Shown here piece after piece: positions 1-29,745 of a stretch of 34,147 nucleotides of DNA; positions within the stretch are counted from its first letter, which is position 1, and each line of letters opens with the position of its first letter. This DNA is from Nemertoderma westbladi (taxonomy: Eukaryota > Animalia > Xenacoelomorpha), in contig JAUCBJ010007619.1 of the NCBI GenBank assembly GCA_032718475.1, positions 1 to 34,147 of the forward strand. The letters run 5' to 3'. Under the pieces are notes generated by a model. The model saw only the letters and a list, made by a program, of their open reading frames with translations. It was not told the DNA's origin and ran no database searches. Both the position numbers and the translations under genes were made by a program.

Positions 1-2290
1 CACGGTTAGTAACTCGGTTCTAATTGGGTTTACCACGGTTAGTAACTCGGTTCTAATTGGGTTTACCACGGTTAGTAACTCGGTTCTAATTGGGTTTACC
101 ACGGTTAGTAACTCGGTTCTAATTGGGTTTACCACGGTTAGTAACTCGGTTCTAATTGGGTTTACCACGGTTAGTAACTCGGTTCTAATTGGGTTTACCT
201 GGGTTAGTAACTCGGTTCTAATTGGGTTTACCACGGTTAGTAACTCGGTTCTAATTGGGTTTACCACGGTTAGTAACTCGGCTCTAATTGGGTTTACCAC
301 GGTTAGTAACTCGGTTCTAGTGGGGTTTACCACGGTTAGTAACTCGGTTCTAATTGGGTTTACCACGGTTAGTAACTCGGTTCTAATTGGGTTTACCTGG
401 GTTAGTAACTCGGTTCTAATTGGGTTTACCACGGTTAGTAACTCGGTTCTAATTGGGTTTACCACGGTTAGTAACTCGGCTCTAATTGGGTTTACCACGG
501 TTAGTAACTCGGTTCTAATTGGGTTTACCATACGGTTAGTAACTCGGTTCTAATTGGGTTTACCACAGTTAGTAACTCGGTTCTAATTGGGTTTACCACG
601 GTTAGTAACTCGGTTCTAATTGGGTTTACCTTGGTTAGTAACTCGGTTCTAATTGGGTTTACCACGGTTAGTAACTCGGTTCTAATTGGGTTTACCACGG
701 TTAGTAACTCGGCTCTAATTGGGTTTACCACGGTTAGTAACTCGGTTCTAGTTGGGTTTACCACGGTTAGTAACTCGGTTCTAATTGTGTTTACCACGGT
801 TAGTAACTCGGTTCTAATTGGGTTTACCACGGTTAGTAACTCGGTTCTAGTTGGGTTTACCACGGTTAGTAACTCGGTTCTAATTGGGTTTACCACGGTT
901 AGTAACTCGGTTCTAATTGGGTTTACCACGGTTAGTAACTCGGTTCTAATTGGGTTTACCACGGTTAGTAACTCGGTTCTAATTGGGTTTACCATACGGT
1001 TAGTAACTCGGTTCTAGTTGGGTTTACCACAGTTAGTAACTCGGTTCTAATTGGGTTTACCACGGTTAGTAACTCGGTTCTATTTGGGTTTACCTGGGTT
1101 AGTAACTCGGTTCTAATTGGGTTTACCACGGTTTGTAACTCGGTTCTAATTGGGTTTACCACGGTTAGTAACTCGGTTCTAATTTGGTTTACCGCGGTTA
1201 GTAACTCGGTTCTAATTGGGTTTACCACGGTTAGTAACTCGGCTCTAATTGGGTTTACCTCGGTTAGTAACTCGGTTCTAGTTGGGTTTACCACGGTTAG
1301 TAACTCGGTTCTAATTGGGTTTACCACGGTTAGTAACTCGGTTCTAATTGGGTTTACCACGGTTAGTAACTCGGTTCTAATTGGGTTTACCACGGTTAGT
1401 AACTCGGTTCTAATTGGGTTTACCACGGTTAGTAACTCGGTTCTATTTGGGTTTACCTGGGTTAGTAACTCGGTTCTAATTGGGTTTACCACGGTTTGTA
1501 ACTCGGTTCTAATTGGGTTTACCACGGTTAGTAACTCGGTTCTAATTTGGTTTACCGCGGTTAGTAACTCGGTTCTAATTGGGTTTACCACGGTTAGTAA
1601 CTCGGCTCTAATTGGGTTTACCACGGTTAGTAACTCGGTTCTAGTTGGGTTTACCACGGTTAGTTACTCGGTTCTAATTGGGTTTACCACGGTTAGTAAC
1701 TCGGTTCTAATTGGGTTTACCACGGTTAGTAACTCGGTTCTAATTGGGTTTACCACGGTTAGTAACTCGGTTCTAATTGGGTTTACCACGGTTAGTAATT
1801 CGGTTCTAATTGGGTTTACCACGGTTAGTAACTCGGTTCTAATTGGGTTTACCACGGTTAGTAACTCGGTTCTAATTGGGTTTACCACGGTTAGTAACTC
1901 GGTTCTAATTTGGTTTACCGCGGTTAGTAACTCGGTTCTAATTGGGTTTACCACGGTTAGTAACTCGGCTCTAATTGGGTTTACCACGGTTAGTAACTCG
2001 GTTCTAGTTGGGTTTACCACGGTTAGTAACTCGGTTCTAATTGGGTTTACCACGGTTAGTAACTCGGTTCTAATTGGGTTTACCACGGTTAGTAACTCGG
2101 TTCTAATTGGGTTTACCACGGTTAGTAACTCGGTTCTAATTGGGTTTACCACGGTTAGTAATTCGGTTCTAATTGGGTTTACCACGGTTAGTAACTCGGT
2201 TCTAATTGGGTTTACCACGGTTAGTAACTCGGTTCTAATTGGGTTTACCACGGTTAGTAACTCGGTTCTAATTGGGTTTACCACGGTTAG
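1..2290. repeat. Intronic tandem array, 33-bp unit CACGGTTAGTAACTCGGTTCTAATTGGGTTTAC, about 69 copies, runs off the window start
   Basis: Directly visible; near-identical units. Confidence 0.98.
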
Positions 2291-2404
2291 ACACAAGTTT
2301 CTTTTTGTTATATTTGTGACTATATTTAAATATGTTTTATATAGTCAGTATATGTTTATATACAGTCTTAATGTATTTTTATTTGTTGACTAAAATTTCT
2401 ACAG

Positions 2405-2602
2405 ATTGAGAATATGGCCAAGATTCGTGGCAGTGTGTCTAAGCGTTCTGTGGATGGAATGAGACGGCCGTACGCAGCCAGTTGGTTTACGGCTAGTAGC
2501 GGGATCCCCAGGTACTTCCGACTGGGTTCCTCTAACAATGTCTATAACAAACCGTTAGACGAAGGCTATTACTGCGTCTATACTATATCCTATTTGTCTC
2601 AG
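2405..2602 (+). CDS. Lar: Lar exon: membrane-proximal ectodomain with basic processing site ([16 protein letters not shown]...ISYLSQ)
   Basis: ctacag acceptor, CAG|gtaaat donor, 66 codons; KR then PY-AA, F-LG, YNKPL motifs in the same order as in the LAR juxtamembrane region. Confidence 0.85.
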
Positions 2603-5600
2603 GTAAATATTGAGTTTAAGGTTATAATATAACTGTATCAAATAACTATAATAATATACGAATAAACACAATATAGTCAGTCATACAGTAATTATACGAT
2701 TTAGGTCTACAGTGGTTGTTTAGCAACGAACTGTAAGTTCTAGACTAACATTAGTTCATTTACATTGTCGTCATGGATGCGGATTTACATTTAATTAGTC
2801 ACAAACACCCAGACTACACTATCTCTTTACTGAGTTATGATTCTCGTGTCTTTGATTGCATTCACTCTCTACGTTCGTTCGTATGGTTAACCTCTTGAGT
2901 GAGAAGTGCCTGTCGAACTGTAGTGTTACTTTTCTGATGCGCGTACTGTAAAGTGTTACTTTACAAGACCCTCGACCAGTAGTGTTACTTTTTCTGATGA
3001 GCTTACTGTAAAGTGTTACTTTTCTGATGGGCGTACTGTAAAGTGTTACTTTTCGGATGAGCGTACTGTAAAGTGTTACTTTACATACAAGTATGTAACT
3101 ATAGTTATTAATTCATTGGATCGTGTTACTTAGGTAACGAAGTCGGTGTACGTGATCTCTCAGTTCTCGGAACCGTTCCGTGTGGTCCCGTCTGACCCTC
3201 TCGCCGACACCAACCAGGTCGCCGCCACAGACGCCCCCGACTCCAACCAACCCCATCTCTTCTGGATCGCCGGGGTAGCAGCCGGTGTCGTCTTCGTTAT
3301 CGTCGCCGTCCTCGTTGTTATCTTCTGCTTCCGTAAGCGCTCGCTACCCACCATGCCGGACCACAAGGCCTACACGCCGTTACCGCTGCAGCAGCACTCC
3401 AACGACCCGGTGGAACTACGGCGAATCAACTATCAGACGGCCGCGATGCTCGCCAACCCGCCGGTTTCCCTCCTCGAGTTCGGTAGCCATGTAAACCGAT
3501 TGAAACACAACGAAAACGCTAAGTTTTCTCAGGAATACGAGGTGAGGATTTCGGTTTTTAATATCTATAACAATATATGTTCATTCTCTTTATATCAACC
3601 GACCATAAACCGGATGTGTTAGTTGTATAAAACCATTAATTTACCAGTTCGGAGGAGGAATTTATTCGCTATGATATTTAATACACCGTCGCTCCCCCCA
3701 CCAAAAATGTATTTTCTTTGTATTTAATATGTTTAACCGAGTAACCGCGTATATTTGGTTTAATGTCGGAGGTTATGTATCACTTTATATTTAATCGTCT
3801 GATGTAGGTAGCTTACTCCCCGATGCAGTGCACTTAATATCATCAAGCAACCTGTTTAACCTTAGTAGTTCCCTTTTCTGCTATTCTACCCTCCGAGCAG
3901 TTTCATTCTCTCAGTAAACTAAATCACAATCTCAGTGACTAATACAGTGGCCTTTATACGGTATTGGGACTACTGGATCGAGATGGGACACTAAGTTGGC
4001 TGCTGAATCCATGTGGCTATGTGGGGTGTCATTCTGATAATATCTTTAGCAAATATTTCCCTTGGTTAAATTGGAAATACAATAAATAAATGAATTTTTA
4101 TAAATTTCTATAATTTACAGTCGATTGACCCCGGCCAACAGTTTACTTGGGAACACAGCAACAAAGAAATAAACCGAGCGAGGAATCGTTACGGCAATGT
4201 TATAGCATACGATCATTCCCGAGTCGTTCTACATGATAACGAAACAGGTGGGTTATAACCAAAACACTAAACTACTAGTAGCGTAAGTCCTATAAGTATA
4301 TTTTAAAATTATTTTAAATTATTTTAAAGACAGTTATAGAGAAATTGTGAAATAAAACTGGTTGTAGAATTCGAGATAATTTAGAGAAACTCTGTTTACA
4401 TCGTAACTTTTCTGTATGAAAAGTCCTGTCGTTGCCGTTCTTTGACTGGGACCGTATAACGATGAGTTTCTTCCCAGGAGATTACATCAACGCGAATTAT
4501 TTGGACGGCTATAAGAAACCCAATGCTTATATCGCAACCCAAGGTCCGTTGCCTGAGACATTCGGAGACTTCTGGGCGATGGTTTGGGAGCAGAAATCTC
4601 GAGTTATTGTAATGATGACTCGATTGGAGGAGAGGGGACGGGTTAGTCGTTTATTTATCTTCTTTGATAAAGTTTTACATAAAAGTAGCTCTTAAACTCT
4701 GTAGTTCTGAGCGAAGTTCTTTAACAATATACTTTGCAGTAATAATTTATTCCGCTCTTCTGATATTAGAATATTTTATGTGAATGTAATTCAACGCCGC
4801 AATTTTCGACTTTTTGACATTTTAGATATTTTTTATATTTTATTATTTGACTATTTAGATTTTCTGTCTGTTGATTGTTTATATAACAATAATATAGTGT
4901 TTGTGAACAAAATAAAATAATACCGGTACTTACTCTACTCATGCAATTAATCCTTAAATTTGTTTTGGTTATTTACATTCGGTTTGTATTTTTAATGTTT
5001 CAGGTGAAATGCGACCATTATTGGCCGATGCGATTGGGTACCTGCCAAGTCTATGGCGGAGTTTCTGTAACCCTTATGGAAATTCTAGAATTATCGTCTT
5101 ACACAATACGTGTATTATCTATTAGTAAGGACAATAGTAAGCGAGAGGTGAGCACACCTTCCCACCTAACTGAACTATAATTATAAATAGAATGATTTAA
5201 AGGTTACAAATCTCACAGTAACCGCAATAACTTGGAAGCAATTAACTTGTTGAAGAGTTTTATTGTATTAATTACCCTAGACCATCTCAATAATAACCAA
5301 CACCGTTTACATAGGTGAAACAGTTCCAGTTCACATCGTGGCCGGACCACGGGGTACCTGACTACCCGACCACAGTGTTGGCCTTCGCGAGACGCGTGCG
5401 GGGTTGTATACCGGTGGAAGATGGACCAATGGTAGTCCATTGTAGGTTAGTGTTTATCTCGTTACCTAGCAACCTGTTGTATACCGGTGGAAGGACCAAT
5501 GGTAGTCCATTGTAGGTTAGTGTTTATCTCGTTACCTAGCAACCTATTGTATACCGGTGGAAGATGGACCAATGGTAGTCCATTGTAGGTTAGTGTTTAT

Positions 5601-8600
5601 CTCGTTACCTAGCAACCTATTGTATACCGGTGGAAGATGGACCAATGGTAGTCCATTGTAGGTTAGTGTTTATCTCGTTACCTAGCAACCTATTGTATAC
5701 CGGTGGAAGATGGACCAATGGTAGTCCATTGTAGGTTAGTGTTTATCTCGTTAGAAATTTTCTTAGTGGACTTTACTAATACGCCTTTTTATTTCATTAA
5801 ATTTATGTAACTAAAGTTATACTTTATTTACTTTTAGCGCTGGCGTCGGCCGTACTGGTTGTTTTGTTGTCATCGACGCGATGTTGGAACGAATTAAACA
5901 CGAGAAGACGGTCGACATTTACGGTCACGTGACCTGCCTTCGCGCGCGTAGGAACTACATGGTTCAGGTTAGTTGGGTTCAAACAGCTGACAATCCCCGC
6001 CGAGGGTCAATAAAGTAACGCTGTTTACGTTTACGGTTTTTTGCTTTAAAAATTTGTGAAAATTTCGAAAAATTCAAAATATTATTGTTATAAACCCGCT
6101 GATCGATATATTATATTGCCCCTCTTCGTATAAAAATACTACATACTTTCGTGTTATACTTAATTCTGATTGGCTGATTTGTTCGGTAGACCGAGGAGCA
6201 GTACGTGTTCATCCACGACGCGGTGCTGGAGGCGGTTTACTGCGGCGTCACCGAAGTCCCAGCGCGGTCGCTCTACAACCATCTACAGCAGCTCAACATC
6301 GTCCCACCCGGGGATACAACCTCCCAACTCGAGTCAGAGTTTCGGAGACTAGCTAACTCGAAGGCTCTGCCCAGTCGGTTCGTGGGCGCTAATCTACCCG
6401 CAAACCGCTTCAAGAACAGACTCGTTAATATTCTTCCATGTGAGTAACTCAGTTAGTAATAACGCACCCAAGGGAGGCTTTATCAGGGGGCGAACTTAAA
6501 CATTCGACAGTTGTAGTAAATTAATATGCAATAGGTTCTCTTTTCAGGTGAAGTTCTTTAGGGCTTTAGTTACTTTTCATCTTATTCACTAATATGTAAA
6601 AATATTTTAAAAATGATAATTTTTAAATTAATATATTGGAATTTTGATGGAAAATTTGTTGAAAATTGTTATGAAAGTAATTAAGTTTCACTCCCGAGAT
6701 TTTAAAACAAAATATAAATTATCTTTAGCAATAAAAAATTTTAGAATTTTATATAAAAAGTAAAACTTAAATTAAGTTTCGTAGTTAATTAATTAACTCC
6801 AATTAATAATTGTTGTTTAGTTGAGTCGACTAGAGTTCTCCTCCAGCCGATTCGGGGTTCCGATGGTTCGGATTACATCAACGCGAGTTACATCGACGGC
6901 TATCGACTCAAGAAGAACTTTATAGCGACGCAGGGGCCTCTAGCGGAGACTACTGACGATTACTGGAGGATGGTGTGGGAACACAACTCCAGTATCCTAG
7001 TGATGCTAACCAAACTGAGGGAGATGGCTCGGGTAAGTTCTACAGTGATTGGCGAACCAGGCTATTTTTGTGGTGGTGAACGTGAATTCCTTGGCTTAAT
7101 GAGCTTAAACGACTTTCTCATTCATTAGAATTTTAATGTTATTTTCTATTGTAGGAGAAATGTCACCAATATTGGCCAATGGAGAAAGCGACGCAGTGCC
7201 AATATATTGTGGTGGACCCGTTACATGAATACCAGATGCCGCAATACATAGTGAGGGAATTCAAGTTAACAGATACAAGAGTAAGTTAAAGTAAAGTTCA
7301 CATACTGGCAAGAGTTGGCTGGTAGATTCTTTCATGTATTCTATTTGGTAAATTATAACCATACGCAGTGACAATGAGTGACAACGTCGCAGTGACAATG
7401 AGTGACAACGTCGTAGTGACAATGAGTGACAACGCCGTAGTGACAATGAGTGACAACGTCGCAGTGATAATGTGTGACAACGTCGTAGTGACAATGAGTG
7501 ACAACGTCGCAGTAATAATGAGTGACAACGTCGCAGTGATAATGAGTGACAACGTCGTAGTGACAATGACTGACAACGTCGCAGTGACAATGAGTGACAA
7601 CTTCGTAGTGACAATGAGTGACAACGTCGCAGTAATAATGAGTGACAACGTCGCAGTGATAATGAGTGACAACGTCGTAGTGACAATGAGTGACAACGTC
7701 GCAGTAATAATGAGTGACAACGTCGTAGTGACAATGAGTGACAACGTCGTAGTGACAATGAGTGACAACGTCGCAGTGATAATGAGTGACAACGTCGCAG
7801 TGATAATGAGTGACAACGTCGCAGTGACAATGAGTGAAAACGTCGTAGCGACAATGAGTGACAACGTCGCAGTGATAATGAGTGACAACGTCGCAGTGAT
7901 AATGAGTGACAACGTCGCAGTGACAATGAGTGAAAACGTCGTAGCGACAATGAGTGACAACGTCGCAGTGATAATGAGTGACAACGTCGCAGTGACAATG
8001 AGTGACAACGTCGTAGTGACAATGAGTGACAACGTCGTAGTGACAATGAGTGACAACGTCGTAGTGACAATGAGTGACAACGTCGTAGTGACAATGAGTG
8101 ACAACGTCGTAGTGACAATGAGTGACAACGTCGCAGTGATAATGAGTGACAACGTCGCAGTGACAATGAGTGGCAACGTCGTAGTGACAATCAGTGACAA
8201 CGTCGTAGTGACAATGAGTGACAACGTCGTAGTGACAATGAGTGACAACGTCGCAGTGATAATGAGTGACAACGTCGCAGTGACAATGAGTGAAAACGTC
8301 GCAGTGGTAATGAGTGATAACGTCGCAGTGGTAATGAGTGACAACGTCGTAGTGACAATGAGTGACAACGTCGTAGTGACAATGAGTGACAACGTCGCAG
8401 TGATAATGAGTGACAACGTCGCAGTGACAATGAGTGACAACGTCGTAGTGACAATCAGTGACAACGTCGTAGTGACAATGAGTGACAACGTCGTAGTGAC
8501 AATGAGTGACAACGTCGCAGTAATAATGAGTGACAACGTCGTAGTGACAATGAGTGACAACGTCGCAGCGACAATGAGTGACAACGTCGCAGTGATAATG

Positions 8601-11600
8601 AGTGACAACGTCGCAGTGATAATGAGTGACAACGTCGCAGTGATAATGAGTGACAACGTCGCAGTGACAATGAGTGAAAACGCCGTAGCGACAATGAGTG
8701 ACAACGTCGCAGTGACAATGAGTGACAACGTCGTAGTGACAATGAGTGACAACGTCGCAGTGATAATGAGTGACAACGTCGCAGTGATAATGAGTGACAA
8801 CGTCGTAGTGACAATGAGTGACAACGTCGCAGTGACAATGAGTGAAAACGTCGTAGCGACAATGAGTGACAACGTCGTAGTGACAATGAGTGACAACGTC
8901 GCAGTAATAATGAGTGACAACGTCGTAGTGACAATGAGTGACAACGTCGTAGTGGTAATGAGTGACAACGTCGCAGTGACAATGAGTGACAACGTCGCAG
9001 TGACAATGAGTGACAACATCGTAGTGACAATGAGTGACAACGTCGTAGTGACAATGAGTGACAACGTCGCAGTAATAATGAGTGACAACGTCGTAGTGAC
9101 AATGAGTGACAACGTCGTAGTGGTAATGAGTGACAACGTCGCAGTGACAATGAGTGACAACGTCGCAGTGACAATGAGTGACAACATCGTAGTGACAATG
9201 AGTGACAACGTCGCAGTGACAATGAGTGACAACGTCGCAGTAATAATGAGTGACAACGTCGTAGTGACAATGAGTGACAACTTCGCAGTGATAATGAGTG
9301 ACAACGTCGCAGTGACAATGAGTGACAACGTCGCAGTGACAATGAGTGACAACGTCGTAGTGACAATGAGTGACAACGTCGTAGTGACAATGAGTGACAA
9401 CGTCGCAGTGACAATGAGTGACAACGTCGTAGTGACAATGAGTGACAACGTCGCAGTAATAATGAGTGACAACGTCGTAGTGACAATGAGTGACAACGTC
9501 GCAGTAATAATGAGTGACAACGTCGTAGTGACAATGAGTGACAACGTCGCAGTGACAATGAGTGACAACGTCGCAGTGACAATGAGTGACAACGTCGCAG
9601 TGACAATGAGTGAAAACGTCGTAGCGACAATGAGTGACAACGTCGTAGTGACAATGAGTGACAACGTCGCAGTAATAATGAGTGACAACGTCGTAGTGAC
9701 AATGAGTGACAACGTCGCAGTGATAATGAGTGACAACGTCGCAGTGACAATGAGTGACAACGTCGCAGTGACAATGAGTGACAACGTCGTAGTGACAATG
9801 AGTGACAACGTCGTAGTGGTAATGAGTGACAACGTCGCAGTGACAATGAGTGACAACGTCGCAGTGACAATGAGTGACAACGTCGCAGTGACAATGAGTG
9901 ACAACGTCGCAGTGATAATGAGTGACAACGTCGCAGTGGTAATGAGCGACAACGTCGCAGTGATAATGAGTGACAACGTCGCAGTGACAATGAGTGACAA
10001 CGTCGCAGTGATAATGAGTGACAACGTCGCAGTGGTAATGAGCGACAACGTCGCAGTGATAATGAGTGACAACGTCGCAGTGGTAATGAGTGACAACGTC
10101 GTAGTGACAATGAGTGACAACGTCGCAGTGATAATGAGTGACAACGTCGCAGTGACAATGAGTGACAACGTCGCAGTGATAATGAGTTCCGAAAAGCTAG
10201 AAGGACAATAGACCTCATTCTGACAGGATAATTGATAAGTTATTTACAAGGGAATAGAGTCGCTTAACTCATCTTCTTTGTATTGTAGACTACTCCGAGC
10301 GCGTGTGTTAGAGGTGGTTGCGAGACGTTAGTGCCCGCGAGACGTTAGTGCCCGCGAGATGTTAGTGCCCGCGAGACATTAGTGCCCGCGAGACGTTATG
10401 CCCGCGAGACGTTAGTGCCAGCGAGACGTTAGTGCCCGCGAGACGTTAGTGCCCGCGAGACGTTATGCCCGCGAGACGTTAGTGCCCGCGAGACGTTAGT
10501 GCCCGCGAGAATTTAGTGCCCGCGAGACGTTAGTGCCCGCGAGACGTTAGTGCCCGCGAGACGTTAGTGCCTGCGAGACGTTACTACCCGCGAGACGTAT
10601 GGCCCGCGAGACGTTAGTGCCCGCGAGACTTTAGTGCCCGCGAGACTTTAGTGCCCGCGAGATGTTAGTGCCCGCGAGACGTTTGTGCCAGCGAGACGTT
10701 ATGCCCGCGAGACGTTAGTGCCCGCGAGACGTTAGTGCCCGCGAGACGTTACTACCCGCGAGACGTTACTACCCGCGAGACGTATGGCCCGCGAGACGTT
10801 AGTGCCCGCGAGACTTTAGTGCCCGCGAGACTTTAGTGCCCGCGAGACGTAGGGCCCGCGAGACGTTAGTGCCCGCGAGACTTTAGTGCCCGCGAGACTT
10901 TAGTGCCCGCGAGACGTTAGTGCCCGCGAGACGTTTGTGCCCGCGAGACGTTATGCCCGCGAGACGTTAGTGCCCGCGAGACGTTAGTGCCCGCGAGACG
11001 TTACTACCCGCGAGACGTTACTACCCGCGAGACGTATGGCCCGCGAGACGTTAGTGCCCGCGAGACTTTAGTGCCCGCGAGACTTTAGTGCCCGCGAGAC
11101 GTAGGGCCCGCGAGACGTTAGTGCCCGCGAGACTTTAGTGCCCGCGAGACGTTAGTGCCCGCGAGACGTTAGTGCCCGCGAGACGTTAGTGCCTGCGAGA
11201 CGTTACTACCCGCGAGACGTATGGCCCGCGAGACGTTAGTGCCCGCGAGACTTTAGTGCCCGCGAGACTTTAGTGCCCGCGAGACGTTAGTGCCCGCGAG
11301 ACGTTTGTGCCCGCGAGACGTTATGCCCGCGAGACGTTAGTGCCCGCGAGACGTTAGTGCCCGCGTGACGTTACTACCCGCGAGACGTTACTACCCGCGA
11401 GACGTATGGCCCGCGAGACGTTAGTGCCCGCGAGACTTTAGTGCCCGCGAGACTTTAGTGCCCGCGAGACGTAGGGCCCGCGAGACGTTAGTGCCCGCGA
11501 GACTTTAGTGCCCGCGAGACTTTAGTGCCCGCGAGACGTTATGCCCGCCTCCCAAGACCCACAAACACACGTTATTATTTTTACGTGTTTCAGGATGGCC

Positions 11601-14600
11601 AAACTCGCACGGTAAGACAGTTCCATTATATCGACTGGCCGGAACAAGGGGTTCCGAAAGTGGTCGATCAGTTTCTAGATTTTATTAACCAAGTTCATAA
11701 AACCAAAGAACAGTTCGGTTGTGACGGTCCCATTACAGTTCACTGCAGGTTAGTGAAGGTTTAATAGTATAGAAATATTTCAATATTTTATTAAGTAATG
11801 TGTGTAAGTAAATGAGGAGGAATGATTGTTTGTAATTTCATGATTTGAAGCATTTTAGAACCATAAAAATAGTTATTTTCAGAAGAATATTTTAATAATA
11901 ACAATATAATAAAACACAATACATTTCAATAATTATACATTTATTTTGGGAACTAATATATAAAAATTACGCGATTCCTAAATTTCTACACTAGTCGGTT
12001 ATAAAGTACGCATGTGATGGGATTAGTCCTACAATTACGCCAATAAAAGATAAGTTATTTTCGGTAAAATAAATGTATCATTCGAGGTAAAGACCCCTAG
12101 ATCCCTTCCTATATTAAATATATAATAACAAACACCAAGAGTAATGATATACCGGGCCTGCATATAAAAATAATACGAGAATGAGGTTGGATGTTGGGTG
12201 GGGAGGTCTCGGAGACCAGCATCTAGAGAATGAGATTGGATATCGGGTGGGGAGGTCTCGGAGACCAGCATCTAGAGAATGAGGTTGGGTATCGGGTGGG
12301 GAGGTCTCGGAGACCAGCATCTAGAGAATGAGATTGGATATCGGGTGGGGAGGTCTCGGAGACCAGCATCTAGAGAATGAGGTTGGGTATCGGGTGGGGA
12401 GGTCTCGGAGACCAGCATCTAGAGAATGAGGTTGGGTATCGGGTGGGGAGGTGTCGGAGACCAGCATCTAGAGAATGAGGTTGGGTATCGGGTGGGGAGG
12501 TCTCGGAGACCAGCATCTAGAGAATGGGGTTGGGTATCGGGTGGGGAGGTCTCGGAGACCAGCATCTAGAGAATGGGGTTGGATGTCGGGTGGGGAGGTC
12601 TCGGAGACCAGCATCTAGAGAATGAGGTTGGGTATCGGGTGGGGAGGTCTCGGAGACCAGCATCTAGAGAATGAGGTTGGGTATCGGGTGGGGAGGTCTC
12701 GGAGACCAGCATCTAGAGAATGGGGTTGGGTATCGGGTGGGGAGGTCTCGGAGACCAGCATCTAGAGAATGAGGTTGGATATCGGGTGGGGAGGTCTCGG
12801 AGACCAGCATCTAGAGAATGAGGTTGGATGTTGGGTGGGGAGGTCTCGGAGACCAGCATCTAGAGAATGAGATTGGATGTCGGGTGGGGAGGTCTCGGAG
12901 ACCAGCATCTAGAGAATGAGGTTGGGTATCGGGTGGGGAGGTCTCGGAGACCAGCATCTAGAGAATGAGGTTGGATGTTGGGTGGGGAGGTCTCGGAGAC
13001 CAGCATCTAGAGAATGAGATTGGATGTCGGGTGGGGAGGTCTCGGAGACCAGCATCTAGAGAATGAGGTTGGATGTCGGGTGGGGAGGTCTCGGAGACCA
13101 GCATCTAGAGAATGAGATTGGATGTCGGGTGGGGAGGTCTCGGAGACCAGCATCTAGAGAATGAGGAATGGGGATAAATGCGTCATTATAAAAATAACAT
13201 GTACTCCGGCAGGTATTGCATTATACCATGCATGGAAGTATATTATAGTAAATATATTCACTGAATTGAGTAAGTAATATTGTTGTCATGATTTTCCTAA
13301 AAGTGGCCAAATTCTACCGGTTCATATGCAAAATCGATACGATTTTTTAACTTTTCCCTCACTATTATTCTAATGGGAACAGCCCCGGTTTCAAGTCGAA
13401 AAATAAAAATAAAACGACATATTCTATTTAAATAAAGATCCTGTGTTTCACTTTCGGGCTCTCGTTTCTTATTTTCCCTTCGCTACACTCGTTCATGGAA
13501 ATATTCCCACTCGAGCCGGCGTTAAATACAGTGTTTCTTTATTTAAATCTAATATAGTTAGTATATATTCCACACAATTTGTGTGTTTTGATTTAATTTA
13601 ACTGGTTTTATTGGCACTACTGTTAGAGAAAGAGGAACTTTCTTCAGGCTGAAGATTTGGAACTAATTTCTTTAATATAATTCATAACATCGTGGTAGGC
13701 CGTATCGAACGACTCACCAATATTTACTTTCATTTTATATTGCAGCGCCGGGGTTGGTCGAACTGGAGTTTTTATTGCATTGAGTATAATTATAGAGCGA
13801 ATACAATTAGAAGGTCTAGTTGATATCTTCCAAGTTGTAAAACTTTTGAGAACACAGCGGCCAGCTATGGTACAAACTGAGGTAGGTTGGTACAAACCGA
13901 GGTAGGTTGGCCAAACTGGGGTAAGTTGGTACAAACTGGGGTAGGTTGGTACAAACTGGGGTAGGTTGGTACAAACTGAGGTAGGTTGGTACAAACCGTG
14001 TAGGTTGGTACAAACCGAGGTAGGTTGGTACAAACCGAGGTAGGTTGATACAAACTGGGGTAGGTTGGTACAAACCGAGGTAGATTGGTACAAACCGAGG
14101 TAGGTTGGTACAAACTGAGGTAGGTTGGTACAAACTGAGGTAGGTTGATACAAACTGGGGTAGGTTGGTACAAACCGAGATAGGTTGGTACAAACTGAGG
14201 TAGGTTGGTACAAACCGAGGTAGGTTGGTACAAACCGAGGTAGGTTGGTACAAACTGAGGTAGGTTGGTATAAACTGGGGTAGGTTGGTACAAACCGAGG
14301 TAGGTTGGTACAAACTGAGGTAGGTTGGTACAAACCGAGGTAGGTTGGTACAAACCGAGGTAGGTTGGTACAAACTGGGGTAGGTTGGTATAAACTGGGG
14401 TAGGTTGGTATAAACTGGGGTAGGTCGGTACAAACCGAGATAGGTTGGTACAAACTGAGGTAGGTTAGTACAAATCGAGGTAGGTTGGTATAAACCGAGT
14501 AGGTTGGTACAAACCGAGGTAGGTTGGTACAAACTGAGGTAAGTTGGTACAAACTGGGGTAGGTCGGTACAAACCGAGGTAGGTTGGTACAAACCGAGGT

Positions 14601-17456
14601 AGGTTGGTACAAACTGGGGTAGGTCGGTACAAACCGAGGTAGGTTGGTATAAACTGGGGTAGGTTGGTACAAACCGAGGTAGGTTGGTATAAACCGAGTA
14701 GGTTGGTACAAAACCGAGGTAGGTTGGTACAAATCGAGGTAGGTTTGTACAAACCGAGGTAGGTTGGTACAAACCGAGGTAGGTTGGTACAAACCGAGGT
14801 AGGTTGGTATAAACTGGGGTAGGTTGGTACAAACCGAGGTAGGTTGGTATAAACCGAGTAGGTTGGTACAAACCGAGGTAGGTTGGTACAAACCGAGGTA
14901 GGTTGGTATAAACTGGGGTAGGTTGGTACAAACCGAGGTAGGTTGGTACAAACCGAGGTAGGTTGGTATAAACTGGGGTAGGTTGGTACAAACCGAGGTA
15001 GGTTGGTACAAACCGAGGTAGGTTGGTACAAACCGAGGTATGTTGGTATAAACTGAGGTAGGTTGGTACAAACCGAGGTAGGTTGGTACAAACCGAGGTA
15101 GGTTGGTATAAACTGGGGTAGGTTGGTACAAACTGAGGTAGGTTGGTACAAACCGAGGTAGGTTGGTACAAACCGAGGTAGGTTGGTACAAACTGGGGTA
15201 GGTTGGTACAAACCGAGGTAGGTTGGTACAAACTGGGGTAGGTTGGTACAAACCGAGGTAGGTTGATACAAACTGGGGTAGGTTGGTACAAACCGAGGTA
15301 GGTTGGTACAAACCGAGGTAGGTTGGTACAAACCGAGGTAGGTTGGTACAAACTGGGGTAGGTTGGTACAAACCGAGGTAGGTTGGTACAAACTGGGGTA
15401 GGTTGGTACAAACCGAGGTAGGTTGGTACAAACTGGGGTAGGTTGGTACAAACCGAGGTAGGTTGATACAAACTGGGGTAGGTTGGTACAAACCGAGATA
15501 GGTTGGTACAAACTGAGGTAGGTTGGTACAGATCGAGGTAGGTTGGTACAAACTGAGGTAGGTTGATACAAACTGGGGTAGGTTGGTACAAACCGAGATA
15601 GGTTGGTACAAACTGAGGTAGGTTGGTACAAACCGAGGTAGGTTGGTACAAACCGAGGTAGGTTGGTACAAACCGAGGTAGGTTGGTACAAACTGAGGTA
15701 GGTTGGTACAAACCGTGTAGGTTGGTACAAACCGTGTAGGTTGGTACAAACCGAGGTAGGTTGGTACAAACCGAGGTAGGTTGGTACAAACTGAGGTAGG
15801 TTGGTACAAACTGAGGTAGGTTGGTACAAACCGAGGTAGGTTGGTACAAACTGAGGTAGGTTGGTACAAACCGAGGTAGGTTGGTACAAACCGAGGTAGG
15901 TTGGTACAAACTGAGGTAGGTTGGTACAAACTGAGGTAGGTTGGTACAAACTGAGGTAGGTTGGTACAAACTGAGGTAGGTGGGTACAAACCGAGGTAGG
16001 TTGGTACAAACTGAGGTAGGTGGGTACAAACCGAGGTAGGTTGGTACAAAATGAGGTAGGTTGGTACAAACTGAGGTAGGTTGGTACAAACTGAGGTAGG
16101 TTGGTACAAACCGAGGTAGGTTGATACAAACCGAGGTAGGTTGGTACAAACCGAGGTAGGTTGGTACAAACCGAGGTAGGTTGGTACAAACCGAGGTAGG
16201 TTGGTACAAACTGAGGTAGGTTGGTACAAACCGAGGTAGGTTGGTATAAACCGAGGTAGGTTGGTACAAACTGAGGTAGGTTGGTACAAACTGAGGTAGG
16301 TTGTTACAAACTGAGGTAGGTTGGTACAAACTGAGGTAGGTTGGTACAAACCGTGTAGGTTGGTACAAACTGAGGTAGGTTGGTACAAACCGAGGTAGTT
16401 GGTACAAACTGAGGTAGGTTGGTACAAACTGAGGTAGGTTGGTATAAACTGGGGTAGGTTGGTATAAACCGAGGTAGGTTGGTACAAACTGAGGTAGGTT
16501 GGTACAAACTGAGGTAGGTTGTTACAAACTGAGGTAGGTTGGTACAAACTGAGGTAGGTTGGTACAAACTGAGGTAGGTTGGTACAAACCGTGTAGGTTG
16601 GTACAAACCGAGGTAGGTTGGTACAAACTGAGGTAGGTTGGTACAAACTGAGGTAGGTTGGTACAAACCGTGTAGGTTGGTACAAACTGAGGTAGGTTGG
16701 TACAAACCGTGTAGGTTGGTACAAACCGAGGTAGGTTGGTACAAACCGAGGTAGGTTGGTACAAACCGAGGTAGGTTGGTACAAACCGAGGTAGGTTGGT
16801 ACAAACCGAGGTAGGTTGGTATAAACTGAGGTAGGTTGGTACAAACCGAGGTAGGTTGGTACAAACCGAGGTCAGGTTGGTACAAACCGAGGTAGGTTTG
16901 TACAAACCGAGGTAGGTTTGTACAAACTGAGGTAGGTTGGTACAAACCGAGGTAGGTTTGTACAAACCGAGGTAGGTTGGTACAAACCGAGGTAGGTTGG
17001 TATAAACTGAGGTAGGTTGGTACAAACTGAGGTAGGTTGGTACAAACCGAGGTAGGTTGGTATAAACCGTGTAGGTTGGTACAAACCGAGGTAGGTTGGT
17101 ACAAACCGAGGTAGGTTGGTATAAACTGGGGTAGGTTGGTACAAACCGAGGTAGGTTGGTACAAACCGAGGTAGGTTGGTACAAACCGAGGTAGGTTGGT
17201 ATAAACTGGGGTAGGTTGGTACAAACCGAGGTAGGTTGGTACAAACCGAGGTAGGTTGGTACAAACCGAGGTATGTTGGTATAAACTGGGGTAGGTTGGT
17301 ATACTAATTATAATACAAAATATACTTTGATAGTTTTTGTGTTTATAATCCTTTAATTATTAACCAGATATATTTGTAAATTTGCAGGACCAATACGCGT
17401 TGTGTTATAAAGCGGCATTGGAATACGTTGGCAGCTACGATCAGTATTTATCCTAG
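2405..17456 (+). CDS. Lar: LAR-family (type IIa) receptor protein tyrosine phosphatase, 5'-partial; join(2405-2602,3134-3541,4121-4247,4478-4641,5004-5147,5315-5445,5838-5967,6190-6439,6821-7032,7155-7280,11594-11748,13746-13881,17388-17456)
   Basis: Manual splicing gives 2250 nt of continuous frame ending in TAG; all 12 introns are GT-AG with matching phases. Contains a TM helix, D1 motifs [38 protein letters not shown] and D2 motifs [21 protein letters not shown]. Segments such as [20 protein letters not shown] and [10 protein letters not shown] are diagnostic of LAR/PTPRD/PTPRS. Confidence 0.96.
2917..3085. repeat. Short intronic tandem repeat, about 30-bp unit ACTGTAAAGTGTTACTTTTCTGATGRGCGT, about 5 partly interrupted copies
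   Basis: Units start at 2945, 3005, 3035, 3065. Confidence 0.85.
3134..3541 (+). CDS. Lar: Lar exon: transmembrane helix and wedge region (VTKSVY...FSQEYE)
   Basis: ttag acceptor, GAG|gtgagg donor; hydrophobic [25 protein letters not shown] followed by RKR; [12 protein letters not shown] motif. Confidence 0.93.
4121..4247 (+). CDS. Lar: Lar exon: start of D1 ([14 protein letters not shown]...[16 protein letters not shown])
   Basis: ttacag acceptor, G|gtgggt donor (phase 1); not in ORF track, translated by hand. Confidence 0.95.
4478..4641 (+). CDS. Lar: Lar exon: D1 (GDYINANY...IATQGP...RLEERGR)
   Basis: ttcccag acceptor, CGG|gttagt donor; canonical PTP motifs. Confidence 0.95.
5004..5147 (+). 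CDS. Lar: Lar exon: D1 (VKCDHYWP...SKRE)
   Basis: tttcag acceptor, GAG|gtgagc donor; KCxxYWP motif. Confidence 0.93.
5315..5445 (+). CDS. Lar: Lar exon: D1 WPD loop to catalytic Cys ([15 protein letters not shown]...PMVVHC)
   Basis: catag acceptor, AG|gttagt donor (phase 2). Confidence 0.95.
5404..5753 (+). repeat. 73-bp tandem repeat (about 4.8 copies) made of the last 42 nt of a Lar exon plus its donor and intron start
   Basis: Units start at 5404, 5477, 5547, 5620, 5693; the second has a 3-bp deletion. Confidence 0.96.
5838..5967 (+). CDS. Lar: Lar exon: D1 P-loop ([44 protein letters not shown])
   Basis: ttttag acceptor, CAG|gttagt donor; not in ORF track, translated by hand. Confidence 0.95.
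6190..6439 (+). CDS. Lar: Lar exon: D1 Q-loop, linker, start of D2 (TEEQYVFIH...KNRLVNILP)
   Basis: gtag acceptor, T|gtgagt donor (phase 1). Confidence 0.94.
6821..7032 (+). CDS. Lar: Lar exon: D2 ([23 protein letters not shown]...TKLREMAR)
   Basis: tttag acceptor, CGG|gtaagt donor; translated by hand. Confidence 0.95.
7155..7280 (+). CDS. Lar: Lar exon: D2 (EKCHQYWP...REFKLTDTR)
   Basis: tgtag acceptor, AGA|gtaagt donor; translated by hand. Confidence 0.95.
7364..10187. repeat. Intronic tandem array, 24-bp unit CGYAGTGAYAATGAGTGACAACGT, about 118 copies
   Basis: Directly visible; unit contains AGTGACAA twice. Confidence 0.98.
10320..11548. repeat. Intronic tandem array, 17-bp CpG-rich unit GCGAGACGTTAGTGCCC, about 73 copies
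   Basis: Directly visible; 16-bp variants and higher-order blocks. Confidence 0.98.
11594..11748 (+). CDS. Lar: Lar exon: D2 ([10 protein letters not shown]...WPEQGVP...PITVHC)
   Basis: tttcag acceptor, AG|gttagt donor (phase 2). Confidence 0.95.
12177..13166. repeat. Intronic tandem array, 49-bp G-rich unit GAGAATGAGGTTGGRTRTCGGGTGGGGAGGTCTCGGAGACCAGCATCTA, about 20 copies
   Basis: Period of 49 (e.g. 12422 to 12471). Confidence 0.97.
13746..13881 (+). CDS. Lar: Lar exon: D2 P-loop ([14 protein letters not shown]...[11 protein letters not shown])
   Basis: ttgcag acceptor, GAG|gtaggt donor; translated by hand. Confidence 0.95.
13868..17303 (+). repeat. Tandem array, 20-bp unit TGGTACAAACYGAG|GTAGGT, about 170 copies; first copy is the real exon end and donor
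   Basis: First unit overlaps the MVQTE codons (13868-13881) and donor (13882-13887). Confidence 0.98.
17388..17456 (+). CDS. Lar: Lar terminal coding exon ([22 protein letters not shown])
   Basis: tttgcag acceptor; matches the LAR-type C-terminus DQYxxCYxAALEYxGS; TAG at 17454-17456. Confidence 0.95.
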   Translation, partial: DQYALCYKAALEYVGSYDQYLS

Positions 17457-19199: not shown

Positions 19200-20548
19200 A
19201 AGGAATGCCTGTTCACCACATGGGTGATCTTCCACAGTAAACCCTTCCGCTCTGTTTCCCAAAGGAATGCCTGTTCACCACCATGGTTGATCTTCCACAG
19301 TAAACCCTTCCACTCTGTTTCCTAAAGGAATGCCTGTTCACCACATGGGTGATCTTCCACAGTAAACCCTTCCACTCTGTTTTCCAAAGGAATGCCTGTT
19401 CACTACCATGGGTGATCTTCCACAGTAAACCCTTCCGCTCTGTTTCCCAAAGGAATGCCTGTTCAAAACCATGGGTGATCTTCCACAGTAAACCCTTCCT
19501 CACTGTTTTCTAAAGGAATGCCTGTTCACTACCGTGGGTGAACTTCCACAGTAAACCCTTCCACTCTGTTTCCTAAAGGAAAAGGAATGCATGTTCACCA
19601 CTATATGGGTGATCTTCCACAGTAAACACTTGCACTCTGTTTCCCAAAGGAATGCCTGTTCACCGCCATGGGTGATCTTCCACAGTAAACCCTTCCACTC
19701 TGTTTCCCAAAGGAATGCCTGTTCACCACATGGGTGATCTTCCACAGTAAACCCTTCCACTCTGTTTTCCAAAGGAATGCCTGTTCACTACCGTGGGTGA
19801 TCTTCCACAGTAAACCCTTCCACTCTGTTTCCTAAAGGAAAAGGAATGCATGTTCACCACTATATGGGTGATCTTCCACAGTAAACACTTGCACTCTGTT
19901 TCCCAAAGGAATGCCTGTTCACCGCCATGGGTGATCTTCCACAGTAAACCCTTCCACTCTGTTTCCCAAAGGAATGCCTGTTCACCACCATGGGTGATCT
20001 TCCACAGTAAACAATTCCACTCTGTTTCCTAAAGGAATGCCTGTTCACCACCACCACCATGGGTGATCTTCCACAGTAAACACTTCCACTCTGTTTCCCA
20101 AAGGAATGCCTGTTCACCTCCTTGGGTGATCTTCCTCAGTAAACCCTTCCACTCTGTTTCCCAAAGGAATGCCTGTTCACCACCATGGGTGATCTTCCAC
20201 AGTAAACAATTCCACTCTGTTTCCTAAAGGAATGCCTGTTCACCACCACCACCATGGGTGATCTTCCACAGTAAACCCTTGCACTCTGTTTCCTAAAGGA
20301 ATGCCTGTTCACCACCATGGGTGATCTTCCACAGTAAACCCTTCCACTCTGTTTCCCAAAGGAATGCCTGTCCACCACCATGGGTGATCTTCCACAGTAA
20401 ACTCTTCCACTCTGTTTCCTAAAGGAATGCCTCATCACCACCATGGGTGATATTCCACAGTAAACCCTTCCACTCTGTTTCTAATGGCTGTTCACCACCA
20501 TGGGTGATCTTCCACAGTAAATCCTGCCACTCTGTTTCCCAAAGGAAT
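19200..20548. repeat. Intergenic tandem array, about 63-bp unit AAGGAATGCCTGTTCACCACCATGGGTGATCTTCCACAGTAAACCCTTCCACTCTGTTTCCCA, about 21 copies
   Basis: Directly visible; variable CAC microsatellite within the unit. Confidence 0.97.
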
Positions 20549-22440
20549 TGTACGCGCTTTTATAGTAACCTAGGAAATTAGCTACATTTTTTCGCTGCAG
20601 CTTTAAGAGTGTACATTGATTTAATATTATTTCAATACCCATATTACTACATCGGCATAAGATGCGTTGGCGTTGTATCACACATCTCCACATATCACAC
20701 ATCTCCACATAGATGTATCAACAGTTACTCGCACAGTTTCGAAACTTCGCATAGTTATAACTGTATAAAGATCGTCAGTCTGCGTTTAGGAAAAATATTA
20801 TATGACAAAACAGGACAAGCGACGAGCGCAACGATGCATATAATGAAGACGAGTACTGCGTTGACTAAATTATTATATAAACCACCTGGCTTCACATATT
20901 GATCGCATCCCTAGTTATTATTATTATAAAGATCGTCCTAGCCTGCGTTTAAGAAATATATTTAAATACAAAACAGGACGAACGCAAAGAGGCTTATAAT
21001 GAAAACGAGTACTGCGTTTATTATATTCCTATAAACCACCTGGCTTTGCATATTTAACGTGCGATTGGAAATAAGTTCGTGCTACCCTTCCGTGGGTGGT
21101 AGATGTCGCGGTTATGTATTGGTGGTTGGGAAGGGTGGGGGGGGGGGGGGGGGGTGGAGATTAAAAGGGGTGAACACGTACTGTCCACCTTTCTTTGATT
21201 GATTGGTGGTGTGGGTAAATTTCTCAAAACCTGATTTTGTGATACAGTCGCTGCATTTTAATTTGTATATAATAACTAGGCCTCGTGCTGCGCGAAGTCC
21301 CCACGAACGTGTTGGATTTGTTAACATAAGACTTTGCCTTAACACTGGCTTTAAAATTTATTGCTAATGCAGCTTTTTGTTTTCGTGTTGGCATTTAATG
21401 TATGGAATTTGCGCAACCGAAACAAAAAACGGTGCCCAGCCCGTGAGAATGCAGAGGCGCAATATAACATTGTATAAGATAATGTGTTTTACTTTTTTGT
21501 TACTCTTTTTCTTTATACAGTTCAGGTACCTACTGTATACAGTATATATTTGATTTATTGATTGATGTGTTGGTGGAATAATTATATTGATCGATTAAAA
21601 GATTCGTTGACAGATAGTCTTCAAAAATATTTTTCCTAAATTAAATTCATTCTACATAATACACTGTAAGTAATTCTAAAATATAAAAATTACTCCGGAA
21701 GAAATGAATAGCTAAGTGTGGTGATAGTGGTCTCTCTGAGGGAGGGTGGAGGTGGCATTTTGCCATTATGAAAAATTGAATTATTTTGTTTATATCGGTG
21801 TATGTGAAAAGTTGCCTTTGGGAGTCAACCAACCGACAAACAAAATGGCAAACCGGCACTCTTAGACAACTCCACTGTTGGTTGTCTTCTTATTTCCTTG
21901 TGAAGATATTATAACACCAATTCTGCCGTGCAATGTAAAAATACCGTAAGTCAAAAAAGTAATTTCGAGTAAAACGCAAATTACCTTTTGTCTTCAGATT
22001 GTTGGTTTAAATTGTCCGTAAATTTCTAATTTCTTCTGGTGGTGGGAAATTTTTCTGCGTATTATTTTTCACTTTCCATTAATATTTTGACTTCAGGGTT
22101 GTCTTTTGTACTAACAGCGTTTTTGCGTTGTACAACGTGTATGTAAATACATTCGATACAATGCAAAAAATGTCACAATGACAAATAAGTAAGTCTGTCA
22201 GTTACACTGTCTTGCATTTTGTAAATATGAGACATTAATTACGGGGGGCTACCCCCTGCGGTTATTAATTAATTTGTAAATAACTCGAAATTATTATAAA
22301 ATCTTATGAAATGAATAAAAAATTTGCGTGAAAGAATGTCATTCCGAGAAAATTGCCTTCAAAGTAATACGCCACCGACACATTTGACATACCACCGACA
22401 ACAAAAGACACAAACCGACAGGTAAAATCTCAAACCGATT

Positions 22441-22614
22441 ATCCAATCCTATATCGGTGATTTTTTTGCTGATGTTCTTTCTAATGTGTAAACCACAGAG
22501 TAGAATAGTTGAATACGGAAATACATCTTTAATAGCTTTATGTAATCCACCTTCCTCATCTGAACCAATTATAAGTTTTGAAAGATTTTCCCCAAGCCTA
22601 CCTTCTATTGACAA
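22441..22614 (-). pseudogene. MULE transposase domain fragment
   Basis: IIGSDEEGGLHKAIKDVFPYSTILLCGLHIRKN fits the MULE signature D-x-E-x-GL-x-x-AI-x-x-VFP-x6-C-x-x-H-x3-N. Confidence 0.8.
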
Positions 22615-23130
22615 GACAAGACAACGTTTGGTTATACTGTACGAATGACTAATTACGCCACCGACAGTAGTAAACTGACAGTTCCGAGAATTAATAAAAT
22701 GTTGAAATATTTTGAGTGTGAATTCAGAATTAAACTTTTATAAACTCGCGCTAATATCAACCAACAGTGACGGAATGTCGGTTTGTCATTTTACTTGTCG
22801 GTTTGTGTCTTTTGCCGCCAATTGTAGCGGCTTTGGGGCTTTACTAAATGCACCACCGACCGACAATAGCCCGACGATGCCGACGCTGAATAATTCGTGA
22901 TTCCTTCTTGTCGGTTTATGTTTGTCGATGTGGCTTGTTGTCGGTTTGAGGGTAAAAAGCGGAAACAAAAAGCTACATTAGCAATAATTTTTAAAGCCAG
23001 TTACGGCAAAGTCTTTACAGTAGCACATAAATGGACACTTTAGACCTTAGTCATTAATTATGTCAAGTACACTGTATAGTACAATGAACACATCTCCAAT
23101 AATACACTATAAAAAATTGGAAGTGTCTAT

Positions 23131-23345
23131 AGACCCCCAAAGCTTGACACTTGAACGTAAGCGTCTCCGCTTTGCAGGACATTGCTTTAGCCGTGAGGAC
23201 CATAGCCAGTGCATAATCTTGTGCTTTGACGGCCTCATGGAGTGAATAAGCATGGTGGACAGCCCATGACTTTCTTGAGACGCATTTTAAAGGACACTGG
23301 CCTTGAAGATGCGGATGATCTAGCAAATGTCATGGTTCGTATGTT
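23131..23345 (+). mobile_element. RTE-clade non-LTR retrotransposon, C-terminal ORF fragment, frameshifted
   Basis: RKRLRFAGHCFSRED then, in another frame, PHGVNKHGGQPMTFLRRILKDTGLEDADDLANVM; resembles the RTE C-terminal RLRxxGH...GRP...L-x-D...M pattern. Confidence 0.6.
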
Positions 23346-23998
23346 TGTCGACAAGACGTCATATCATTCTTAATATAGATGTATATATGCAACATTCCAC
23401 TACCGGTACTGAACAAACTGTGGTATATTGTGTTCAATAATATCCGAAACCAGGTGGTTTATAGGAGTATAAAGTCAACTTAGTACTACTCTTCATTATA
23501 AGCCTCGTTGTGCTCGTCCTGTTTTGTCATAAAATATTTTAACGACCTTTATAACTATGAGAAGTCTCGAAACTGTGCAAGTAACTGCTGATTTATGGCA
23601 GATGGATACATGATGTATGGCAGATGAGACAATAAGTTTTGACAAAATACTCACCCCGCCTGTATGATACATGCAGGTTCGTTATTACAGTTATGTAGAA
23701 TTAATTTAATTTTGGAAAACTGGTATATCTGTAAACCAATATATCTGTAAACTAATATATAATTTAATGAATCAATCTTCCAATCGATCAATATTATTTT
23801 CCACCACCTCACCAATCAATACACCAATATGGGTAGGTATACAGTAAGTAAAAAAGTCACACATAACAGCATAATATCGTATATAATAGGCTATATTGCG
23901 CCTCTGCATTCTCACGGGCTGGGCACCGTTTTTTGTTTCGGTTGCGCAAATTCCATACAGTAAATGCCAACATGAAAACAAAAAGCTGCATTAGCAAT

Positions 23999-25445: not shown

Positions 25446-25905
25446 CCCGTAATGTCTGAATGTAATAAATAGGACAATCTGACAATATGATAATGCTATC
25501 CTGCTCTCCTCTGTCCTCTCCTTTGGTTTTCAACCGTTCGACAAGTTGCACATTGGACATTTTCGAATTACCGTAACCCAGTAACCTGGTAGGCGGTAGC
25601 CTAACTGCCTAAAGTATGTATATCGTATATGTAAGGTATGGCAGTATGGGTCCTGGGGGTCATGGGAGTATGGCCATGCCTAGAACAGTAGAAGACAGGC
25701 GGTGTGCGTGCAGCCGACTGCTACGCCCTAAAATGTAAAACTTAGGCTTGCTGCATACTGCAGTACTGCTACTTACGGCTGTACGGTATATCTGAATATG
25801 GCAATATGGGCCGACTATATTTTACAATGTTACAGTTGTCTGGTTGTAGTACTGCTACTGCTGTACTGTACAGTATTATTATTATTAATAGTTTATTGAC
25901 GTTAA

Positions 25906-26063
25906 ATGCCATGATACACCACAGGAACGGCGAGCGGCAGCGGCGAGCGGCAGCGGCAGCGGCGAGCGGCCACTTTTTAAAAATAAAACACATTATTTTC
26001 TATGGGTGATGGACTGATGATACACCACAAATGGCTGCTGCCGCTCGCCGCTCCTATAGTGTA
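25906..26063. mobile_element. Short foldback MITE-like element, right end truncated at the LINE tail
   Basis: Starts TTAA|ATGCCATGATACACCACAGGAACGGCGAGCGGCAGC, ends GCTGCCGCTCGCCGCTCCTATAGTGTA (imperfect inverted repeat); inverted second copy at 33930-34075. Confidence 0.7.
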
Positions 26064-29712: not shown

Positions 29713-29745
29713 TTTGGATGATGTAGATAGCGGATAAACAGATAG

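What the first reader, a model, noticed from the sequence alone, without database searches (positions are those of the whole stretch)
1..17456. Intron expansion by locally born, mutually unrelated minisatellites, biased to 5' splice sites
Seen: seven different arrays occupy about 11 kb of 17.4 kb while all 13 exons stay intact, and introns without arrays are only about 120-600 bp. Two arrays clearly and one possibly start at a donor; none copies an acceptor. Inference: a genome-level process (slippage or small-circle rolling amplification, perhaps transcription/R-loop linked) inflates introns from local sequence and is tolerated because the first donor after an exon wins. I do not know of this being described as a systematic phenomenon, but I could not search the literature.
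Basis: partly seen in the sequence, partly recalled or inferred. Interest (0 to 1): 0.72.

Follow-up and report, generated by a model that had tools for sequence, protein, structure and literature searches.

The report
Stuttering introns in a phosphatase gene
In an invertebrate receptor-phosphatase gene, seven unrelated short repeats fill two-thirds of 17 kb and three of them copy an exon end with its splice signal; this repeat type is already known from lancelets, chickens and humans, and the spare signals are likely ignored.

Summary
Observation confirmed. The region is the 3' part of a LAR-type receptor tyrosine phosphatase gene: 13 GT-AG exons, 749 codons, no internal stop. Seven mutually unrelated arrays (17-73 bp units) fill 11,290 of 17,456 bp. 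The 'possible' third donor array is real: a spliced contig shows the upstream exon ending in 15 of 16 bases of the A1 unit, joined to the next exon with no extra unit. So 3 of 7 arrays span a donor (0.66 expected, P=0.02 in a pre-selected window), 0 of 7 an acceptor (P=0.49); 3:0 is not significant (P=0.125). The 5' bias is unproven, and unchecked scan notes list acceptor arrays as well as donor arrays elsewhere in this genome. The phenomenon is in print: lancelet 'mirages', chicken 'sequence stuttering' (a genome-wide screen), human F7 (first donor wins). Variant maps favour stepwise block duplication over one rolling-circle burst. One array (A2) sits in a dispersed repeat, so 'locally born' is shown only for the three donor arrays. 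The scan found this before, on this genome and others. New member of a known kind, larger than published cases.

The parts
1..2290 (+). A1: 33-bp donor-spanning array (16 exonic + 17 intronic bases), at least 69 copies, cut by the window start; unit is 11 codons, mostly stop-free in the exon's frame
2405..2602 (+). exon 1 of window (extracellular region)
   Evidence: both junctions in spliced contig
2913..3085 (.). A2: degenerate 30-bp array, about 5 copies, purely intronic; lies between and overlaps multi-copy pieces (about 2843-2884 and 3065-3098); about two units shorter in another sample
3134..3541 (+). exon 2 (predicted transmembrane and juxtamembrane part)
4121..4247 (+). exon 3
4478..4641 (+). 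exon 4
   Evidence: its start continues a spliced contig
5004..5147 (+). exon 5
5315..5445 (+). exon 6 (ends inside the first PTP domain's HCSAG motif)
5404..5753 (+). A3: 73-bp donor-spanning array (42 exonic + 31 intronic), 4.8 copies
5838..5967 (+). exon 7
6190..6439 (+). exon 8
6821..7032 (+). exon 9
7155..7280 (+). exon 10
7364..10187 (.). A4: 24-bp intronic array, 118 copies, starts 83 bp after the donor
10320..11548 (.). A5: 17-bp intronic array, 73 copies, ends 45 bp before the acceptor
11594..11748 (+). exon 11 (Pfam Y_phosphatase)
12177..13166 (.). A6: 49-bp intronic G-rich array, 20 copies, mid-intron
13746..13881 (+). exon 12
13868..17301 (+). A7: 20-bp donor-spanning array (14 exonic + 6 intronic), 172 copies, bounded by a 5-bp direct repeat
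17388..17456 (+). exon 13, last coding exon with stop codon

Best explanation
Seven unrelated minisatellites fill the introns of an intact LAR-type phosphatase gene, likely because this genome seeds short tandem duplications at a high rate and grows them stepwise, and the three that copy a splice donor likely persist because splicing uses the copy next to the exon (seen for one, inferred for two). Shown: array anatomy, intact frame, three donor-spanning units, first-donor joint for A1, length difference between samples for A2, nested multi-unit block repeats. Inferred: each array began as one 17-73 bp duplication (slippage at a short direct repeat for A7; a duplication with 12 inserted junction bases, or later loss of the 3' end, for A1 and A3); growth by slippage or unequal exchange; selection removes seeds inside exons and keeps the last 45 bp or more before acceptors free; rare use of downstream copies in A3 and A7 would give frameshifted or truncated products. 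No special targeting of donors is needed. This is the lancelet 'mirage' / chicken 'stuttering' pattern.
For: Intact 749-codon model, four junctions seen in a spliced contig. A1 exonic part matches the upstream exon end at 15 of 16 bases, with no extra unit in the contig and no joint listed from an array copy to exon 1. 0 of 4 downstream donors of A3 and 0 of 151 of A7 keep the frame to the normal stop. Variant maps of the four longest arrays: 14-30 unit types interspersed, blocks of 6-12 units repeated at offsets of 7-15 units. A2 about two units shorter in sample S2. Boundary-spanning arrays of either kind: 3 of 7 against 1.32 expected, P=0.12. Precedent.
Against: Donor-spanning arrays alone are 3 of 7 against 0.66 expected, P=0.02, more than uniform seeding predicts. 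All 7 arrays are G>C on the sense strand against 0.02 in the other intron DNA, and A5 and A6 are richer in G+C than 98.6% and 99.9% of intron slices, so seeds are not random intron pieces. First-donor use was not observed for A3 or A7. The one spliced run is assembled contigs, which drop rare forms.
Confidence: 0.62

Rival explanations
1. Repeat birth is targeted to exon borders by a process tied to transcription or splicing (R-loops or stalled replication at spliceosome-bound sites), so donors are mutational hotspots and not just tolerated sites.
For: 3 of 7 donors against 0.66 expected, P=0.02; G>C on the sense strand in 7 of 7 arrays, chance about 0.5 each. Unchecked notes report many boundary arrays in this genome: a lead, not support.
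Against: Window was picked for its arrays; 3:0 donor to acceptor P=0.125; donor motifs are G-rich, which builds in the skew for 3 arrays, leaving 4 of 4 (about P=0.05) with A5 at only 0.05; strict G-quadruplex motifs only in A6. GC-rich exon ends in a 30% G+C intron background could give the excess with no link to splicing.
Confidence: 0.18
2. The intronic arrays are carried in or seeded by dispersed mobile elements, and only the donor arrays are local.
For: A2's edges are multi-copy, depth up to 1030 against 25 for single-copy DNA in X3, and other contigs join the two flanks without the array. The 63-bp array outside the gene has a single copy at 32713 whose flank also matches intron 9 (54 bp, 83%, E 4e-9). 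A4-A6 are GC-rich.
Against: A4, A5, A6 units occur nowhere else in the 34-kb window, and their flanks show no direct or inverted repeats above shuffles. It cannot explain A1, A3, A7.
Confidence: 0.12
3. Each array was made in one step by rolling-circle copying of a small excised circle and reinserted.
For: High identity of units, 94.5-99.5% to the modal unit for A1-A7; arrays start abruptly.
Against: Interspersed variants and nested block duplications at unequal offsets need many rounds; the donor arrays sit exactly at their template, which slippage explains without reinsertion. An initial burst is not excluded.
Confidence: 0.04
4. A1 is a functional source of alternative donors that adds 11-residue repeats to the receptor's extracellular stalk.
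For: Unit is 33 bp; 63 of 66 donor-to-donor segments are 33 bp and stop-free. The A1 loop contig is present in the spliced run at depth 351 against 47 for the exon contig.
Against: One in three unit lengths is a multiple of 3 by chance; two segments shift the frame; the spliced contig has no added unit and no joint from an array copy to exon 1 is listed; unspliced RNA times copy number explains the loop depth.
Confidence: 0.04

Closest known systems
Lancelet 'mirage' minisatellites (Adh3, globins BflGb6/BflGb9, troponin C, PGBD5). Seen: matching passages of PMC3087553 and PMC3902484; Canestro et al. 2002 not held, known only as cited there
   Same: Tandem units of 10-160 bp spanning an exon-intron border, spare splice signals, normal splicing kept, length differs between haplotypes; suggested to be general in lancelets.
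   Different: Globin arrays have 3-6 copies; here 5, at least 69, and 172. Lancelet cases include acceptors; this gene has none. The host is not a close match to any listed protein (best 71%) and is unplaced.
Chicken 'sequence stuttering' (intronic and exon stuttering), Hron et al. Seen: abstract and passages of Results and Discussion of bioRxiv 10.1101/2025.09.16.676548, one passage of PMC12954441; supplements not seen
   Same: Strictly local, independent repeat clusters in introns, some purely intronic, some copying an exon edge with its donor or acceptor; several clusters per gene; length variation in the population; found by a genome-wide screen (236 introns, 190 on dot chromosomes).
   Different: There tied to GC-rich dot chromosomes, 1-44 exon copies (median 4); here an invertebrate with 30% G+C introns and up to 172 copies. 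The passages seen give no donor-to-acceptor ratio.
Human donor-spanning VNTRs: F7 intron 7 (37 bp x5-9), with IFI6 (6-16), CBS, lamin B2, PDGF. Seen: abstract, Introduction and Discussion of PMC1557585
   Same: First monomer spans the exon-intron border; identical spare donors follow; the most upstream one is used.
   Different: Isolated loci, 5-26 copies; in 6-16 and CBS two further donors are also used. The scanning rule was tested in mammalian cells, not in this animal.

Membership tests
Mirage minisatellite | Repeat unit spans an exon-intron border | tested here: met
   A3, A7; A1. A2, A4, A5, A6 do not and are plain intronic minisatellites.
Mirage minisatellite | Copies carry spare splice signals | tested here: met
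   Donor-like 9-mers above the weakest true donor: 64 in A1, 5 in A3, over 120 exact copies of the true donor in A7. A5 and A6 also pass this lax score without spanning a donor.
Mirage minisatellite | Normal splicing is kept | tested here: inconclusive
   Met for A1 in one contig set; A3 and A7 not covered by any laid run.
Mirage minisatellite | Length instability between alleles or cells | tested here: inconclusive
   Shown only for the non-mirage array A2; contigs give no copy number for A1.
Sequence stuttering (Hron et al.) | Repeat-filled introns with independent local clusters | tested here: met
   A2 is local as an array but lies in a dispersed sequence.
Sequence stuttering (Hron et al.) | Occasional inclusion of exon edges | tested here: met
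   3 of 7 arrays
Sequence stuttering (Hron et al.) | Extensive intron length variation within the species | not testable with these tools
   Needs long reads of several animals; only the A2 difference was seen.
Mobile-element-borne minisatellite | Unit or flanks dispersed in the genome | tested here: inconclusive
   Met for A2's edges and the 63-bp array outside the gene; not met within the window for A4-A6; no genome held.

The most novel reading that the evidence does not exclude
This animal has a genome-wide process, coupled to transcription or splicing, that seeds tandem duplications preferentially at exon borders with the G-rich strand as the sense strand and grows them to hundreds of copies, making it the main engine of intron growth in a GC-poor genome and a natural test bed of how spliceosomes choose among hundreds of identical splice sites.
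Probability: 0.15. Interest if true: 0.65.

Novelty: new member of a known kind. Interest (0 to 1): 0.3.

Why it matters
It extends mirage/stuttering repeats to another invertebrate at larger scale, with 5 of 12 introns plus the upstream intron affected in one gene, and shows that GC-rich bird-type chromosomes are not required. Arrays with 70-170 spare donors are a ready test of the first-donor rule outside mammals. The papers read leave the birth mechanism open; a genome this rich in such arrays could settle whether exon borders are mutational hotspots or only tolerated. One window cannot.

Tried and rejected
No RNA holder was listed; run X4, guessed as DNA, proved to behave as spliced RNA. 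Reads were laid only on 2225-4290, so A3-A7 have no read evidence. Look-ups of the A4, A6 and A5 units in the scan's notes found 0 windows: a small index, no evidence of absence. Host identity: exon 8 best hits 63-69%, exon 2 best 30-58%; a 16-row tree leaves the protein unplaced on a 0.45 branch among bilaterian LAR proteins; no rows dropped, but no cnidarian, lancelet or xenacoelomorph row was known to be in it. Terminal repeats round the arrays: 0 of 14 comparisons under p=0.05. A common G-quadruplex cause: strict motifs in 1 of 8 arrays. My first exon model had three off-by-one borders, corrected. Paper searches with no useful hit: 0 papers; listings only, none read. No paper giving a genome-wide donor-to-acceptor ratio turned up; the library lacks most subscription journals.

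Full report
What the region is. Window 1-17456 holds the last 13 coding exons of an animal receptor tyrosine phosphatase. The exon model was built by hand and checked in a script: 2,250 coding bases, 749 codons, one terminal stop, 12 of 12 introns GT-AG. Exon 8 matches vertebrate PTPRF/D/S, sea cucumber and priapulid LAR at 63-69%, and exon 11 matches Pfam Y_phosphatase. A tree of 16 proteins leaves it unplaced among bilaterian LAR proteins, best identity 71%. The host is likely an invertebrate without close listed relatives. No genome is held.

The observation. TRF finds seven arrays in the region, 11,290 bp in all. The seven introns without arrays are 122-579 bp; the array-bearing introns collapse to 92-1056 bp. 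The units are unrelated: no pair of 28 survives correction, and the units of A1 and A3-A7 have no match elsewhere in the window.

The third donor array. A3 begins 42 bp and A7 14 bp inside the upstream exon. A1 is cut by the window start. Laying contigs of four runs on 2225-4290 showed that run X4, guessed as DNA, is spliced: it skips introns 1 and 2 at GT..AG and runs from exon 3 into exon 4. Its contig continues upstream of exon 1 into sequence reading KSPSEIGFTT, whose last 16 bases match the A1 unit at 15, the mismatch being synonymous; beyond that only 4 of 15 match. Homologues have a similar P-x-x-[FY]-[TL] stretch there. So A1 is 16 exonic plus 17 intronic bases. The contig carries no added unit, and no joint from an array copy to exon 1 is listed: the donor next to the exon is used, at the resolution of assembled contigs.

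Is there a 5' bias? With arrays collapsed and seeds placed uniformly outside exon interiors, 0.66 donor-spanning arrays are expected; 3 of 7 gives P=0.02. Zero acceptors has P=0.49, 3:0 has P=0.125, and boundary arrays of either kind are 3 against 1.32, P=0.12 (the upstream exon was assumed 150 bp; one search gives 0.018-0.024 without it). The window was chosen for its arrays, and the null ignores that exon ends are GC-rich (exons 50%, introns 30%). This is a hint of excess at donors, not a shown preference for donors over acceptors. Lancelet mirages include both ends. Notes of this scan on other pieces of this genome list donor arrays (8 shown of 67 fitting) and acceptor arrays (8 shown of 68 fitting); I checked none of them, so they are leads, but they speak against a 5'-only process.

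Are the units local? For A1, A3 and A7 yes, since they hold unique coding sequence. A2 is different: its edges are multi-copy (bin depth 1030 against 25 in X3, 246 against 17-22 in X1), with many loose ends, and other contigs join the two flanks without the array. A2 therefore grew inside a dispersed short repeat. In sample S2 it lacks about two units (skips of 42 and 31 bp), which shows length variation. Outside the gene, a 63-bp array at 19200-20548 has a single copy at 32713, and that copy's flank matches intron 9 inverted, so it too was likely seeded from a dispersed element. A4-A6 have no terminal repeats, but A5 and A6 are much richer in G+C than the introns; their origin is open.

How they arose and grew. 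A7 is bounded by a 5-bp direct repeat and its unit can be rebuilt from the exon end and intron start, as expected for birth by slippage between short repeats (a model recalled from Haber and Louis 1998, not seen in a call). A1 and A3 each contain 12 bases found in neither flank: either bases inserted at the duplication junction, as in end-joining repair (recalled), or loss of the array's 3' end. Growth: the four longest arrays have 14-30 interspersed unit variants, with blocks of 6-12 units repeated at offsets of 7-15 units. That fits repeated slippage or unequal exchange and not one rolling-circle burst. All seven arrays are G>C on the sense strand (0.05-0.51; other intron DNA 0.02), the only hint for an R-loop link; donor motifs build in the skew for three of them.

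Why it is tolerated. A duplication across a donor leaves the exon and its first donor untouched. Using a later copy would break the protein for A3 (0 of 4 keep the frame to the stop) and A7 (0 of 151); for A1 it would mostly add 11 residues in frame. In human F7 the most upstream of identical donors is used. That this holds for A3 and A7 here is inferred.

What is known. Lancelet 'mirages' are tandem repeats spanning exon-intron borders that do not disturb splicing and vary in length. Chicken 'sequence stuttering' is a systematic description of local intronic repeat expansions, some copying exon edges with donor or acceptor, in 236 introns; I reached that paper through scan note e1-9855471. 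Human F7, 6-16, CBS, lamin B2 and PDGF are donor cases. I found the F7 and mirage papers before opening the scan's notes. What differs here is scale (up to 172 copies against 3-44) and a GC-poor host. Supplements of the chicken paper were not seen and may hold a donor-to-acceptor count.

Verdict. Real, accurately described, and a new member of a known kind. The claims of novelty and of 5' bias are not supported as stated; a border-targeted, transcription-coupled birth process remains possible (about 0.15) and needs the whole genome. Interest 0.3.

Noticed in passing
window 19200-20548 and 32713-32776: A 63-bp array (21 copies) downstream of the gene; one further copy lies 12 kb away in the same register, and 32681-32734 matches intron 9 (7071-7124) inverted at 83% over 54 bp: a dispersed short element that likely seeded the array.
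   Followed up: partly
window 27065-30618, minus strand: Broken LINE: reverse transcriptase (RVT_1) and endonuclease (Exo_endo_phos) frames plus an upstream 290-codon frame without a Pfam match, with a 436-bp tandem duplication at 28785-29660.
   Followed up: partly
window 33001-33339, minus strand: 112-codon frame that resembles the C-terminal end of a restriction-endonuclease-type non-LTR element (recalled; no Pfam match).
   Followed up: no
window 3265-3360 (exon 2): One contig of spliced run X4 (depth 50) lacks the 96 bases coding the predicted transmembrane stretch, with 4 other letters between and non-GT/AG ends, only 29 letters on its short side; may be a reverse-transcription or laying artefact.
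   Followed up: no
window 2339-4000: Sample S2 differs from the window at many intronic and several exonic sites (about 40 listed): a highly polymorphic species.
   Followed up: no
window 10320-11548 and 12177-13166: A5 and A6 do not span a donor yet carry 31 and 35 donor-like 9-mers by a lax score; a donor-like motif in a unit is no proof of donor origin.
   Followed up: partly
window 23999-25445, 21310-24757, 25887-34094: A 710-730 bp tandem duplication and several inverted-repeat pairs typical of non-autonomous DNA elements.
   Followed up: no
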